Origin: a phage
Reading direction: 5' to 3' (one strand)
DNA: 64,000 nt
Sequence record: PZ386967.1
In this document: positions 1-6,426 of the stretch, piece by piece
Layout: each line of letters opens with the position of its first letter
How positions within the stretch are numbered: position 1 is the stretch's first letter
The notes under the pieces: model-generated
Databases searched by the model: none
Told to the model about the DNA's origin: nothing
What the model saw: the letters and a program-made list of their open reading frames with translations, nothing else
Translations under genes and position numbers: made by a program

Positions 1-174
1 ATCACCGAAGTCCGTGCCCTGAACAAGACACTGTCTAAAGTGGTGTATGGTATCGTTGCTGGCCACGGCTGGTTCACCGACCTCGACCTGGAAGAGTCCA
101 CCATGGAAGTTGAAGTGGATGGCGTGAAGTACAAGGTCACTGCCGAACTGACAGAGAAAGAAATCAAAATCTAA
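1..174 (+). CDS. 3-prime fragment of a CDS running in from upstream (hypothetical protein)
   Basis: Open frame from position 1 to TAA at 172-174; followed by a GC hairpin plus T-run. Confidence 0.4.
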   Translation: MTEVRALNKTLSKVVYGIVAGHGWFTDLDLEESTMEVEVDGVKYKVTAELTEKEIKI

Positions 175-182
175 TCCAACGG

Positions 183-206
183 GCGGGGCAACCCGCCTTT
201 CTTTGG
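183..206 (+). terminator. Putative rho-independent terminator
   Basis: GGGCGGGG-caa-CCCGCC stem-loop followed by TTTCTTT immediately after the upstream stop; coordinates approximate. Confidence 0.4.
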
Positions 207-216
207 GAGAAGTAGC

Positions 217-540
217 ATGAGCAGTAAACCAACATATGTTGAAGTCATGCGTCATCTGGCTCAGTACGCCACTGACAATCTGAACTTGGATCTGTGGCGT
301 GACGATGACAAGCGCAAATTGCTGGACGACGTGGCATCTCAGAACGAGGACGCCCTAGACAAGCTGGCTGGCCTCCGCACCAAGAAAGACCTCGGCGGTG
401 ATGAACTGGACGCTATCGAAATTGTAATGGACCTCGAAGAAGAGTTTCAGGTCGAAATCGACGATGGTTGGCTGGGCAGTAAAGGTGATGACCCGACCAT
501 GGGTGAACTCGCTGAACTCGTGGTTGCCCTGCGCAAATAA
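217..540 (+). CDS. Acidic acyl-carrier-protein-like protein; carrier Ser position is Glu
   Basis: Segment DLGGDELDAIEIVMDLEEEFQVEI closely matches the ACP phosphopantetheine-site helix ([20 protein letters not shown]) but has DEL instead of DSL. Confidence 0.5.
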   Translation: MSSKPTYVEVMRHLAQYATDNLNLDLWRDDDKRKLLDDVASQNEDALDKLAGLRTKKDLGGDELDAIEIVMDLEEEFQVEIDDGWLGSKGDDPTMGELAELVVALRK

Positions 541-545
541 CAGAA

Positions 546-611
546 GTCCCCAACAAACGTTGGGGATTTTTACTTTTAGGGGTTTACTTCTATAATGTAA
601 ATGCGTATTAT
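546..611 (+). promoter_or_regulatory. Terminator hairpin fused to early-type promoter (TTTACT-N17-TATTAT), repeat copy 1
   Basis: CCCCAACAAACGTTGGGG hairpin plus T-run, then TTTACT, 17 nt spacer, TATTAT; about 45 bp near-identical to 903-948. Confidence 0.5.
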
Positions 612-1318: not shown

Positions 1319-1825
1319 ATGACCGATCAACAAATTCAAGATTTATTTTACCTCGTCCATGATAAGTCCCACATCATGCGCCCCGGTACTGTTTCCCCTG
1401 CCGTCCGTGATCTGGTGCAAGAATTGCGCGAACCACAGACGACCACACTTTATCGCGGGTTGCCTAAAGAGGACGTTGCGCGTTTAGAGATGATGTTTGA
1501 ACGAGGCGACATGTTCCAGACATGGGATTCTTGCCTTAGCTTCAGTGAACTGAAGCATGTGGCCAAAAAATTTTCTAAATCGTACGGAACCCAAGCTGTT
1601 GCCCGCATTTGTTACAAACATCGAAACAGACTCCCGGAGGGGCTTAATGTCTATGGTTCTCTAGAAAAATTTGTGAACAAAGGCGATGAATCAGAAATGG
1701 ATATGCTGGACTTGGCGTCCATGGAGAAAGAATGGATATTCTGCCAGCCTCGCGTCATACCAGTTTCAAGAAAAATGGCAACAGACGGCACGATGGTTTT
1801 TACCGTATCACTTGTTACCCTATAA
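1319..1825 (+). CDS. Hypothetical protein; possible ADP-ribosyltransferase-like (R, S-x-S, E-x-E motif order)
   Basis: Start trimmed to Met after AGGAACTATACC leader; motifs LYRG, WDSCLSFS, EKEW in the order of R-S-E class ARTs such as T4 ModA/ModB; weak. Confidence 0.45.
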   Translation: MTDQQIQDLFYLVHDKSHIMRPGTVSPAVRDLVQELREPQTTTLYRGLPKEDVARLEMMFERGDMFQTWDSCLSFSELKHVAKKFSKSYGTQAVARICYKHRNRLPEGLNVYGSLEKFVNKGDESEMDMLDLASMEKEWIFCQPRVIPVSRKMATDGTMVFTVSLVTL

Positions 1826-2731: not shown

Positions 2732-3181
2732 ATGTTCCTTACATCCTTTATTGACTGGTTGAACATCATTAACGGCCTGAGGATCCCTGTTGGGAACCTC
2801 GGGCTTTCTCGTTCTTCTATGCCGCAAATCGATGCCGACAAACAAGAAGATTTTCACAAATATCTTGAAGACAACGGCGTGTCCATAGATGCTGTGCAAG
2901 TGCCCATCAAAATGCTTCGTCTCACCCAGAACGAAATCAACAAGATGAAGGTCTGGAAGATCATGAAGCAGATCAGAAATAAGAAACCTATGGGTCGAGT
3001 TTGGGTGTCTTCTGACAATTACGTTGTTGACGGTTCTCACCGATTTGTCGCTGCGTTGAACATGGACGGCAAACAGCGCATGAAGGTCTACAAAGTTGAT
3101 TTGCCAGCGATGGAATTTGTTAAACTCGCTAAACAGTTTCAGGGTGTGCGATACAGAACGGTCAGCGATACCCGTTTCTGA
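2732..3181 (+). CDS. ParB/Srx-like nuclease domain protein
   Basis: Motif VVDGSHRFVAA resembles the ParB N-terminal DGxHR signature. Confidence 0.4.
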   Translation: MFLTSFIDWLNIINGLRIPVGNLGLSRSSMPQIDADKQEDFHKYLEDNGVSIDAVQVPIKMLRLTQNEINKMKVWKIMKQIRNKKPMGRVWVSSDNYVVDGSHRFVAALNMDGKQRMKVYKVDLPAMEFVKLAKQFQGVRYRTVSDTRF

Positions 3182-6178: not shown

Positions 6179-6426
6179 GTCCCAACATGGCAATAATCTG
6201 GGTTGGTGAATCGTCAATGCGTTGTCCTCACAAGACGATCACCTTCTTGGACGATGAGCGCCTGGCCGAACAACGGGTTGAAGTCCGCGAAATGCAGGTT
6301 TCTTCAAAGGTGGTGAACGTTCCTGTGACTAATATTCAGACTTTTAAGCCTTGCGTCAGAGTGATTTGTGAACGCTGTGGATGTTATGGCACGATGACGA
6401 CTGAAGACGTGGCGAAAGGCTATTAA
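6175..6426 (+). CDS. Hypothetical Cys-containing small protein
   Basis: ORF with overlapping stop/start. Confidence 0.4.
   Translation: MSPNMAIIWVGESSMRCPHKTITFLDDERLAEQRVEVREMQVSSKVVNVPVTNIQTFKPCVRVICERCGCYGTMTTEDVAKGY

What the first reader, a model, noticed from the sequence alone, without database searches (positions are those of the whole stretch)
217..540. ACP-like protein with the phosphopantetheine serine replaced by glutamate
DLGGDELDAIEIVMDLEEEF is a near-perfect match to the acyl carrier protein helix II signature [20 protein letters not shown], except that the invariant carrier Ser is Glu (residue 63 of this ORF). The protein is also strongly acidic. This looks like a non-acylatable ACP mimic that could titrate ACP partners such as AcpS, FabH or LpxA, or act as a DNA mimic.
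Basis: seen in the sequence. Interest (0 to 1): 0.6.

Follow-up and report, generated by a model that had tools for sequence, protein, structure and literature searches.

The report
Phage ACP look-alike lacking carrier serine
A small, very acidic phage protein has the fold and docking helix of the bacterial acyl carrier protein but always carries Glu or Asp where the cofactor-bearing serine should be, so it cannot carry fatty acids and most likely works by binding other proteins, probably as a decoy for host enzymes.

Summary

This is a fixed family trait, not a one-off mutation:
- All orthologues examined have Glu or Asp there (Asp in Cba120), including relatives below 50% identity.
- No serine is invariant anywhere in the protein.
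- dN/dS is 0.05-0.24.
- No phosphopantetheinyl transferase or fatty-acid enzyme is annotated in a related genome.
- Fifteen other viral ACPs keep the serine.
- Serine-less relatives also occur in at least four unrelated phage contexts.

GenBank labels the gene "acyl carrier protein"; I found no paper noting the missing serine.

Function is inferred, not shown. My best reading (about 0.4) is a non-acylatable decoy that docks through its conserved acidic helix II onto host ACP-binding enzymes; AcpS and PlsB are the likeliest targets. The main rival is that it binds the metal site of the von Willebrand A (vWA) protein encoded just upstream. The two genes occur apart in other phages, which weakens that rival. 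A DNA-mimic role has no specific support.

This is a new variant of a known kind, of moderate to high interest.

The parts
217..540 (+). CDS of the 107-aa ACP-like protein (the stop codon is included)
403..405 (+). Codon 63, GAA (Glu), at the position of the phosphopantetheine-bearing serine of ACPs
   Evidence: HMM alignments to ACPs. The codon is GAA in 13 orthologues and GAT (Asp) in Cba120. Both need at least two base changes to reach any Ser codon (read directly from the genetic code).
388..447 (+). Residues 58-77, DLGGDELDAIEIVMDLEEEF: the end of loop I plus helix II, which is the acidic 'recognition helix' of ACPs
   Evidence: 17/27 identities to E. coli AcpP over residues 57-83. L59 G60 G61 D62 L64 D65 I67 E68 E74 E76 are invariant in the family. 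The core region has dN/dS 0.03-0.14.
463..498 (+). Residues 83-94, DGWLGSKGDDPT: a remodelled helix III loop that is specific to this family, running into the Thr cap of helix IV
   Evidence: D83 W85 G87 D91 D92 P93 T94 are invariant. The G87 plus DD signature occurs in 11 of 29 Glu/Asp-type domains against 1 of 68 Ser-type domains among the best library hits.
286..366 (+). Residues 24-50: a fast-evolving insert in loop I that gives two extra predicted helices and makes the protein about 26 residues longer than AcpP
   Evidence: The model has helices at 30-40 and 44-51. Regional dN/dS is 0.3-0.6 or saturated, against 0.0-0.14 for the flanking regions. The alignment shows the segment replaced between genera.
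235..279 (+). Residues 7-21: the N-terminal helix, equivalent to ACP helix I, with invariant Y7 V10 L14 A18 N21
   Evidence: Model secondary structure. Invariant columns. Between close relatives dN is 0.
205..210 (+). Ribosome-binding site GGGAGA, 6 nt upstream of the ATG
   Evidence: Read directly from the sequence.
181..198 (+). G+C-rich hairpin with a weak T-tract between the vWA gene and the ACP-like gene. There is no promoter-like site between it and the ATG, so the gene is probably transcribed by read-through from the vWA gene.
   Evidence: Terminator-like scan. The same hairpin is present in the relative L001 at 6181-6198.
547..571 (+). Strong terminator-like hairpin (TCCCCAACAAACGTTGGGGA followed by TTTTT) that closes the transcription unit
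   Evidence: Sequence. The scan reports the same stem on the opposite strand.
569..596 (+). Sigma-70-like promoter (TTTACT-16-TATAAT) that starts the next unit of small genes
   Evidence: Promoter scan, 10 of 12 consensus matches. This is a consensus match only.
1..174 (+). 3' end of the upstream gene for a 713-746 aa vWA-MIDAS protein, cut by the window edge. It is the conserved upstream neighbour of the ACP-like gene.
   Evidence: The window end matches the C-terminus of L001:4033-6174. Pfam VWA scores 29.4 bits. The MIDAS residues D24-x-S26-x-S28, T97, D127 are conserved. Synteny is seen.

Best explanation
The gene encodes a 'dead' acyl carrier protein. It has a four-helix ACP fold and keeps the acidic helix II surface that ACPs use to dock onto partner enzymes, but it cannot receive 4'-phosphopantetheine because the attachment serine is permanently Glu or Asp. 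It therefore acts purely by protein-protein binding.

The most likely mode is a competitive decoy. Made during infection, it occupies the basic ACP-docking sites of one or more host enzymes and so blocks or redirects host ACP-dependent metabolism (fatty-acid, phospholipid and lipid A synthesis). [quoted passage not shown] The carboxylate at position 63 may imitate the negative charge of the serine-phosphate linkage of holo-ACP, or may engage the metal or basic residues of the target's active site.

What is shown: the fold, the loss of the serine, conservation of the docking residues, purifying selection, the lack of a cognate pathway, and recurrence in other phages. What is inferred: binding to host enzymes, the identity of the targets, and the benefit to the phage.
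For: 2. The serine position is Glu or Asp in every family member examined, and no serine is invariant anywhere.
3. The residues equivalent to AcpP D35, D38, E41, E47, E49 are invariant, and those equivalent to M44 and E48 nearly so. The core has dN/dS 0.03-0.14. D35 and D38 are the residues shown to make salt bridges to a partner, IscS (PMC13343975).
4. The gene is an orphan. No phosphopantetheinyl transferase, FAS, PKS or NRPS gene is annotated in the 152-kb genome of a close relative.
5. The serine loss is specific. 15 other viral ACPs from IMG/VR all keep DS[LM].
6. Serine-less relatives lie among small early or replication-type genes in unrelated phage contigs with no vWA gene nearby: L034, L038, L050, L029/L030, plus a Ser-to-Asn version in Vibrio phage 277E43-1. 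This argues for a self-sufficient, host-directed function.
7. It is not a virion component. The Vi01-like phage Sajous1 yielded only 1 peptide for it (PMC10892097).
8. Published precedent: apo-ACP inhibits glycerol-3-phosphate acyltransferase more strongly than holo-ACP and stops growth (review PMC3896788).
Against: - There is no experimental or modelling evidence for any host target.
- Helix II is the most conserved part of all ACPs, so keeping it could serve binding to a phage partner equally well.
- The sequence is no closer to enterobacterial AcpP than to other ACPs. The best PDB sequence hit is B. subtilis ACP at 1.6e-5, against 2.3e-4 for E. coli. So there is no host-specific mimicry signal.
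- The family has invariant residues of its own (Y7, N21, L22, R54, K56, W85, G87, DDPT) and a remodelled helix III. These could reflect a different, dedicated partner.
- In Ackermannviridae-like genomes the gene is always the immediate downstream neighbour of a vWA-MIDAS gene, apparently in the same transcript.
- Some ACP partners need the modified serine (SpoT, IscS) and would not be engaged.
Confidence: 0.4

Rival explanations
1. The protein is a dedicated partner of the upstream phage vWA protein. The invariant Glu/Asp at the tip of helix II completes the metal coordination of the vWA domain's MIDAS site, as acidic ligand residues do for integrin I-domains, Rea1/MDN1-UBL, CbbO-Rubisco and NorD. 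The ACP-like protein would then be a subunit, substrate adaptor or regulator of a phage vWA machine.
For: - The order small ORF, then vWA, then ACP-like, with a gap of only about 40 nt, is kept in Agtrevirus, Kuttervirus and four metagenomic relatives whose ACP-like proteins are below 50% identical.
- No promoter-like site lies between the two genes, and a strong terminator follows only after the ACP-like gene.
- The MIDAS residues D24-x-S26-x-S28, T97, D127 are invariant in the 5-sequence alignment. In the 42-sequence alignment T97 and D127 remain invariant and D24, S26, S28 are at least 90% conserved.
- The vWA model is confident (pLDDT 86.6). It resembles ArnB, ITIH and Sec23/24-type vWA plus beta-sandwich modules, which are protein-binding modules. 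The MDN1-MIDAS/UBL complex is also in the hit list.
- An acidic residue that must be Glu or Asp, and never Ala or Gly, is what a metal ligand would require.
Against: - The two genes are separable in both directions. The vWA protein is in 475 phage records, the ACP-like protein in 272. Slopekvirus (Miro) and the Ackermannviridae member Aeromonas phage phiA8-29 carry the vWA gene with no ACP-like gene within 3 kb. No Aeromonas phage and only 44 of the 160 Klebsiella vWA records appear among the genome-wide tblastn hits for the ACP-like protein.
- Serine-less ACP-likes occur in phage contigs with no vWA gene nearby.
- The adjacency can be explained by the general colinearity of these genomes.
- No part of the vWA protein resembles an ACP-binding enzyme.
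Confidence: 0.2
2. The protein is a structural or adaptor subunit of some other phage or hijacked host complex. ACP-fold proteins lacking the prosthetic group serve as scaffolds in Plasmodium (mACP with Isd11-Nfs1) and as accessory subunits in protist mitochondrial complexes.
For: - Precedent: Plasmodium mACP lacks the prosthetic group yet binds and stabilises Isd11-Nfs1 (10.1101/2021.04.13.439690).
- The family-specific invariant surface residues and the remodelled helix III fit a dedicated interface.
Against: - No candidate complex has been identified.
- It is not enriched in virions.
- The small-gene neighbourhood is variable, except for the vWA gene.
Confidence: 0.15
3. The protein is a DNA mimic or general polyanion decoy that blocks restriction enzymes or other DNA-binding defences, independently of ACP partners.
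For: Net charge is -14 and pI is 4.24. It lies in a region of small phage genes that could be host-takeover functions.
Against: - Ordinary AcpP is equally acidic at -15, so charge does not discriminate.
- Conservation is concentrated on the ACP docking helix rather than on a periodic array of carboxylates.
- There are no Pfam hits to known DNA-mimic families and no PADLOC hit.
- A compact protein of about 12 kDa offers little DNA-like surface.
Confidence: 0.05
4. It is still a true carrier protein, loaded at a non-canonical residue or by a phage-specific enzyme.
For: T94 and K56 are invariant. Many phage genes in the genome have no known function.
Against: - No Ser or Cys is invariant.
- T94 aligns with the common Thr cap of ACP helix IV (reading of the alignments).
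- No transferase or acyl-processing enzyme is annotated in the genome.
- Known PPTases act on the serine of the DS[LM] motif (established knowledge).
Confidence: 0.03

Closest known systems
Bacterial type II FAS acyl carrier protein (E. coli AcpP; Pfam PF00550, TIGR00517)
   Different: The carrier serine is Glu or Asp. TIGR00517 scores 33.7 bits against a cutoff of 70.45. Loop I is about 26 residues longer and has a variable helical insert. Helix III is replaced by the GWLGxxGDDPT loop. No similarity is detectable outside residues 48-84. There is no fab or PPTase gene context.
Other phage-encoded ACPs (for example PHROG 5934; IMG/VR loci L014-L028; the Brevundimonas phage ACP predicted to bind FabZ in the FlashPPI preprint)
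   Same: They are small, acidic, virus-encoded ACP-fold proteins filed as auxiliary or host-takeover genes.
   Different: All 15 that I examined, and the FlashPPI example, keep the DS[LM] serine, so they can in principle be loaded. The family described here cannot.
Plasmodium falciparum mitochondrial ACP lacking the phosphopantetheine group (Falekun et al., 10.1101/2021.04.13.439690)
   Same: It is an ACP fold retained after loss of the carrier function, and it works only by protein binding.
   Different: It is a eukaryotic organellar protein that acts as a stabilising subunit of Isd11-Nfs1 rather than a viral effector. The loss is an independent event, and no homology beyond the ACP superfamily has been tested.
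ACP-like accessory subunits of protist mitochondrial complexes (T. brucei mt-SAF32, Euglena NDUEG11, Tetrahymena ATPTT11)
   Different: They are unrelated lineages sitting inside large stable complexes. Whether each of them lacks the serine was not checked here.
Apo-ACP as a growth inhibitor in E. coli (Keating, Carey and Cronan 1995, recalled from memory; summarised in PMC3896788)
   Same: It is an unmodified ACP that inhibits glycerol-3-phosphate acyltransferase and stops growth. This is the functional model for a decoy.
   Different: That effect is an overexpression artefact of the host's own protein. Here a virus encodes a permanently unmodifiable version with an acidic substitution.
MIDAS-acidic ligand pairs (integrin I-domain ligands, MDN1/Rea1 MIDAS with UBL domains, NorD and CbbO vWA proteins)
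   Same: An invariant Glu/Asp on a small domain, encoded next to a vWA protein with an intact MIDAS site.
   Different: No interaction has been shown, there is no AAA+ partner gene, and the two genes occur apart in other phages.

Membership tests
Canonical acyl carrier protein (PP-binding, PF00550 / TIGR00517 AcpP) | Four-helix-bundle carrier-protein fold | tested here: met
Canonical acyl carrier protein (PP-binding, PF00550 / TIGR00517 AcpP) | Sequence profile match above the curated threshold | tested here: inconclusive
   Pfam PF00550 scores 24.8 bits against 20.8, which passes but covers only profile positions 26-66. PF14573 scores 27.4 against 32, which fails. The NCBIfam TIGR00517 equivalog scores 33.7 against 70.45, and all other AcpP models also fall below their cutoffs.
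Canonical acyl carrier protein (PP-binding, PF00550 / TIGR00517 AcpP) | Conserved serine in the D-S-L motif at the N-terminus of helix II, the 4'-phosphopantetheine attachment site | tested here: not met
   The position is E63 in the window. It is Glu or Asp in all 28 aligned relatives, in Cba120 and in 8 more distant relatives, and no serine is invariant anywhere.
Canonical acyl carrier protein (PP-binding, PF00550 / TIGR00517 AcpP) | Conversion to the holo form by AcpS or Sfp, and carriage of acyl thioesters | not testable with these tools
   This needs mass spectrometry or an in vitro PPTase assay. The sequence predicts a negative result.
Canonical acyl carrier protein (PP-binding, PF00550 / TIGR00517 AcpP) | Genomic association with enzymes that load or use the carrier (PPTase, FAS, PKS, NRPS, acyltransferase) | tested here: not met
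   None is annotated among the 199 features of the closely related phage PQ306799. This is annotation-level evidence only, and many of its genes are hypothetical.
PHROG 4154 (Ackermannviridae protein annotated 'acyl carrier protein') | Full-length profile match and conserved genome position | tested here: met
   E 6.8e-57 over residues 1-107 of a 108-position profile. 272 phage records have an orthologue, essentially all Ackermannviridae. Same position in Cba120 and in the Agtrevirus relative.
Serine-less ACP-fold scaffolds (Plasmodium mACP type) | ACP fold with loss of the prosthetic-group serine, kept under selection | tested here: met
   This is a functional class, not a monophyletic family.
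Serine-less ACP-fold scaffolds (Plasmodium mACP type) | Stable binding to a defined partner (an LYR protein such as Isd11, or a respiratory complex) | not testable with these tools
Phage DNA-mimic proteins (Ocr, ArdA, Arn type) | Profile or fold match to a known DNA-mimic family | tested here: not met
Phage DNA-mimic proteins (Ocr, ArdA, Arn type) | Surface array of carboxylates with B-DNA-like spacing | not tested
Net charge of -14 alone does not discriminate, because AcpP is -15.
MIDAS ligand of a vWA protein | Partner vWA domain with an intact DxSxS...T...D metal site | tested here: met
   D24-I-S26-G-S28, T97 and D127 are invariant in 5 divergent orthologues. In 42 homologues T97 and D127 remain invariant and D24, S26, S28 are at least 90% conserved.
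MIDAS ligand of a vWA protein | Obligate co-occurrence of ligand and vWA protein | tested here: not met
   The vWA gene occurs without an ACP-like gene nearby in Slopekvirus and in Aeromonas phage phiA8-29. The ACP-like gene occurs without a vWA gene in L034, L038 and L050.
MIDAS ligand of a vWA protein | Metal-dependent physical contact through the acidic residue | not testable with these tools
   This needs complex prediction with a metal ion, or biochemistry.

The most novel reading that the evidence does not exclude
Large lytic phages of several lineages encode permanently 'dead' acyl carrier proteins as host-takeover effectors. In these the carrier serine is replaced by Glu, Asp or Asn and helix III is remodelled. 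They jam the host's ACP interaction network, for example AcpS or PlsB, and so stop membrane lipid synthesis. In Ackermannviridae the same acidic residue may additionally, or instead, plug the MIDAS site of a conserved phage vWA protein of unknown function. Either outcome would define a new class of phage effector built from a housekeeping cofactor protein.
Probability: 0.35. Interest if true: 0.75.

Novelty: new variant of a known kind. Interest (0 to 1): 0.58.

Why it matters
ACP is one of the most connected proteins in bacteria. It feeds fatty-acid, phospholipid, lipid A, biotin and lipoate synthesis, and it also contacts AcpS, PlsB, SpoT, MukB and IscS.

A virus-encoded ACP that can dock but can never be loaded would be a simple way to switch off or rewire that hub. 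It would be a ready-made probe or inhibitor scaffold for ACP-dependent enzymes, which are antibiotic targets.

The gene is present in more than 270 sequenced Ackermannviridae genomes. Many of these phages are being developed for biocontrol of Salmonella, E. coli O157, Klebsiella and Dickeya. In those records the gene is labelled either 'acyl carrier protein' or 'hypothetical protein'; the former label wrongly implies an auxiliary lipid-metabolism gene.

The finding also draws attention to a highly conserved phage vWA-MIDAS protein of unknown function (475 phage records). It also gives that protein a testable hypothesis for its ligand.

Tried and rejected
1. Host acpP mutation linked to phage resistance in Klebsiella (10.1101/2022.08.04.502604). 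The phage concerned, mtp5, is a Slopekvirus and not an Ackermannviridae member, so there is no link.
2. FlashPPI preprint predicting a phage ACP-FabZ pair. That ACP is from a Brevundimonas phage and keeps its serine, so it is not this family.
3. Virion or tail role, suggested by the 'tail protein' label on the upstream gene in PQ306799. PHROG 2426 has unknown function, and both proteins gave only 1 peptide in the Sajous1 proteomics. Rejected.
4. Obligate vWA/ACP-like pair. Rejected as a general rule because the two genes occur separately. Kept as a lineage-specific rival.
5. Fold search of the vWA protein for any ACP-related enzyme domain. It found only vWA plus beta-sandwich relatives (ArnB, ITIH, Sec23/24). 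The top-60 list showed only N-terminal vWA-type matches of at most about 300 residues, so the remaining C-terminal part has no evident match. The sequence search of the PDB found nothing.
6. Defence or anti-defence libraries. PADLOC returned nothing.
7. Expression timing.
   - A sigma-70-like match lies upstream of the operon in L001.
   - In other relatives the small ORF abuts upstream genes.
   - A TATAATA string sits one base away from the T4 late consensus.
   - Timing is therefore left open. No Ackermannviridae transcriptome was found.
8. Host-specific mimicry. The phage helix II is no closer to E. coli AcpP than to B. subtilis ACP.
9. Context of a Streptomyces Ser-to-Asp ACP (P0126/P0188). 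tblastn of P0159 against cultured phages found no match.
10. Two 'phage' database hits to ACP-like queries are not informative. One is bacterial chromosome (fabD-fabG-acpP) and the other is an UNVERIFIED_ORG Listeria record with no annotation whose origin was not checked.

Full report
**1. Observation**

Window 217-540 (+) is an ATG-started ORF of 107 codons. It has a GGGAGA ribosome-binding site 6 nt upstream. The string DLGGDELDAIEIVMDLEEEF is residues 58-77, and Glu63 is codon GAA at 403-405. The protein has pI 4.24 and net charge -14; E. coli AcpP has -15.

Against AcpP residues 31-50 the motif is 14 of 20 identical. BLASTP finds 17/27 identities over residues 57-83 and nothing else.
- Pfam PP-binding scores 24.8 bits against a gathering score of 20.8.
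- PHROG 4154 'acyl carrier protein' matches end to end at 6.8e-57.
- phmmer finds 99 PDB ACP sequences at E up to 10, and their alignments put E63 on the serine column.

**2. Fold**

The extra length relative to AcpP comes from a longer loop I with two additional predicted helices at residues 30-51.

**3. Source and distribution**

The window comes from an Agtrevirus-like member of the Ackermannviridae; it is 95.6% identical to Escherichia phage vB_EcoM-ZQ1 over the first 3 kb. tblastn finds an orthologue in 272 phage records, essentially all Ackermannviridae of Salmonella, Klebsiella, Escherichia, Dickeya and related hosts. Many are annotated 'acyl carrier protein'. Genome papers list it the same way without comment (PMC3220722; PMC10892097). 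Seven full-text searches found no paper that mentions the missing serine or a function.

**4. The serine loss is a fixed family character**

- In 28 aligned proteins, down to 57% identity, L59-G60-G61-D62-[E/D]-L64-D65 is invariant and no serine is invariant anywhere.
- The codon is GAA in Agtrevirus, Limestonevirus and Taipeivirus representatives and GAT (Asp) in Kuttervirus Cba120. Both are at least two substitutions from any Ser codon.
- A profile search of 1.84 billion representative proteins found eight more distant relatives aligning over most or all of the profile (P0040-45, P0047, P0060). All have D[E/D]L.
- dN/dS is 0.05-0.24 overall, 0.0-0.14 for the N-terminal helix and the core (residues 51-107), and 0.3-0.6 or saturated for the loop I insert at residues 24-50, which is swapped between genera.
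- By contrast, all 15 other ACP genes recovered from IMG/VR viral contigs keep DS[LM].

The only invariant hydroxyl residue, T94, aligns with the usual Thr cap of ACP helix IV.

**5. What is conserved**

The invariant or near-invariant residues include every helix II position that ACPs use to dock on partner enzymes: D62, D65, E68, M71, E74, E75 and E76, equivalent to AcpP D35, D38, E41, M44, E47, E48 and E49.

The family also has a signature of its own. This comprises Y7, N21-L22, R54, K56, and a remodelled helix III region D83-x-W85-x-G87-x3-D91-D92-P93-T94. Among the best library hits, the G87 plus DD loop occurs in 11 of 29 Glu/Asp-type domains but only 1 of 68 Ser-type domains. That sample is biased by the query profile. 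Even so, it indicates a coherent subfamily rather than scattered point mutants.

**6. No cognate pathway**

A closely related, fully annotated genome (PQ306799, 199 features) has no phosphopantetheinyl transferase and no FAS, PKS, NRPS or acyltransferase gene. NCBIfam AcpP equivalog models all score far below cutoff; TIGR00517 gives 33.7 against 70.45.

**7. Genomic context**

The gene follows, by about 40 nt, a 713-746 aa gene whose 3' end occupies window 1-174. Details of the neighbourhood:
- A G+C-rich hairpin with a poor T-tract (181-198) separates the two genes, and no promoter-like site lies between them.
- A strong hairpin plus T-run (547-571) and a sigma-70-like promoter (569-596) follow the ACP-like gene.
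- The upstream protein has an N-terminal vWA domain (Pfam 29.4 bits) with an intact MIDAS motif. D24-x-S26-x-S28, T97 and D127 are invariant across five divergent orthologues. In 42 homologues T97 and D127 remain invariant and D24, S26, S28 are at least 90% conserved.
- The order small ORF, vWA, ACP-like is kept in Cba120 and in four metagenomic Ackermannviridae-like contigs with very divergent ACP-like proteins.
- Both proteins gave one peptide each in a Vi01-like phage proteome, so neither is a real virion component.

**8. Is the vWA neighbour the partner?**

An invariant Glu/Asp next to an intact MIDAS site is suggestive, because MIDAS sites are completed by an acidic ligand residue (established for integrins, MDN1-UBL, NorD and CbbO). 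However, the genes are separable:
- The vWA protein is in 475 phage records, including Slopekvirus (Straboviridae) and Aeromonas phage phiA8-29 (Ackermannviridae). Neither has an ACP-like gene within 3 kb by a sensitive HMM scan. The genome-wide tblastn lists no Aeromonas phage and only 44 Klebsiella records, against 160 Klebsiella records for vWA.
- Conversely, serine-less relatives sit in unrelated phage contexts with no vWA gene nearby:
  - L034, next to ThyX and HNH genes.
  - L038, a 147-kb contig with RNR, ligase, Gam and ThyA.
  - L050, next to a PD-(D/E)XK nuclease and an AAA_24 gene.
  - L029 and L030, which are short contigs of small phage-like ORFs.
  - Vibrio phage 277E43-1, a cultured phage with a Ser-to-Asn ACP-like N-terminal domain.

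I therefore keep the MIDAS-ligand idea as the main rival (0.2), not the lead.

**9. Mechanism**

I commit to a non-acylatable ACP decoy at about 0.4. The protein keeps the docking helix, cannot be loaded, has no pathway of its own, and recurs among small non-structural genes of several phage lineages.

Published work narrows the likely targets. Apo-ACP inhibits glycerol-3-phosphate acyltransferase more strongly than holo-ACP and arrests growth. SpoT does not bind apo-ACP (PMC3896788). IscS binding needs S36 as well as D35 and D38 (PMC13343975). The proteins most likely to accept a serine-less ACP are therefore AcpS, whose natural substrate is unmodified ACP, and PlsB.

The strict requirement for a carboxylate at position 63 suggests that it does something active. 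It might mimic the phosphoester charge of holo-ACP, or bind a metal or basic residue in the target site. All of this paragraph is inference; nothing here demonstrates binding.

Points that count against the decoy model:
- There is no host-specific mimicry signal, since the best PDB sequence match is B. subtilis ACP.
- The family-specific surface could equally serve a phage partner.

**10. Other rivals**

- The DNA-mimic idea (0.05) rests only on charge, which AcpP shares. There is no profile or fold support.
- A cryptic true carrier (0.03) is contradicted by the absence of any conserved Ser or Cys and of any loading enzyme.
- A decaying relic is excluded by the purifying selection.

**11. Verdict**

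Novelty is 'new variant of a known kind': phage ACPs and serine-less ACP scaffolds are each known, but I found no description of a conserved viral ACP with an obligatory acidic residue in place of the serine. Interest is 0.58. A specialist would be moderately surprised, and the hypothesis can be tested directly with simple biochemistry and one phage knockout.

Noticed in passing
window 1-174 (3' end of the gene); full gene in L001:4033-6174: The upstream gene encodes a 713-746 aa protein of unknown function. Its N-terminal vWA domain and MIDAS site are very highly conserved: 72-90% identity between phages whose ACP-like proteins are far more divergent (below the 50% clustering threshold). It is present in 475 phage records spanning Ackermannviridae and Slopekvirus-type Straboviridae. 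The AlphaFold model is confident (pLDDT 86.6), the N-terminal roughly 290 residues resemble ArnB, ITIH and Sec23/24 modules, and the remaining C-terminal part has no evident structural match in the listed hits. One GenBank record labels it 'tail protein', which proteomics does not support.
   Followed up: partly
window 547-592 and 903-947, flanking the ORF at 661-885: A terminator-plus-promoter cassette of about 45 nt (TCCCCAACAAACGTTGGGGATTTTT..TTTTAGGGGTTTACTTC) occurs twice, with one indel between the copies. The copies bracket a 74-aa ORF (PHROG 22629, unknown function) that is not annotated in the relative PQ306799. It looks like a small gene inserted between duplicated regulatory cassettes.
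   Followed up: partly
window 1319-1825 (+): A 168-aa protein matches the C-terminal part of PHROG 832 'RNA polymerase ADP-ribosylase' (Alt/Mod-like) at 5.8e-15 but has no Pfam hit. Its position two genes after the ACP-like gene is conserved in Cba120 (orf140).
   Followed up: no
window 286-366 (residues 24-50 of the ACP-like protein): The loop I insert is replaced wholesale between closely related phages while the flanking residues stay identical. For example, the window and L007/L008 have a core dN of 0.015 but an insert dN of 0.58-0.80. This suggests recombinational swapping or diversifying selection on that surface.
   Followed up: partly
L036:2987-5502: In one metagenomic Ackermannviridae-like contig, a phosphoribosyltransferase/PRPP-synthetase-like gene and a NAPRTase gene are inserted just upstream of the small-ORF/vWA/ACP-like block. 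This pair looks like a possible NAD+ salvage module.
   Followed up: no
L043:2480-3013 (Vibrio phage 277E43-1): A 177-aa hypothetical protein has an N-terminal ACP-like domain in which the serine is Asn (NLGFDNLDFVELLMALEEEF), fused to an unrelated C-terminal half. This is another cultured phage with a non-loadable ACP-like domain.
   Followed up: no
L040:2844-7346 (metagenomic, bacterial-looking contig): A 138-aa Ser-to-Glu ACP-like protein (AALGADELD) lies two genes downstream of a YfbK-type vWA protein and an ECF sigma factor. This is a second, independent vWA/serine-less-ACP neighbourhood and may or may not be coincidence.
   Followed up: no
L044 (CAKLQH020000007.1) and L045 (OR846852.1): The record filed as 'Acinetobacter phage MD-2021a' contains a bacterial rpmF-fabD-fabG-acpP chromosomal region, so it is host contamination or a misassigned contig. 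The 'Listeria phage LM 4-11-1' record is flagged UNVERIFIED_ORG and has no annotation. Hits to phage ACPs in this collection need checking for such records.
   Followed up: partly
window 2732-3181 (+): This 149-aa ORF is annotated 'cytidyltransferase' in PQ306799, but it has no Pfam hit and matches only an internal part (positions 316-467 of 740) of PHROG 2859, which has unknown function. The annotation looks unsupported.
   Followed up: no
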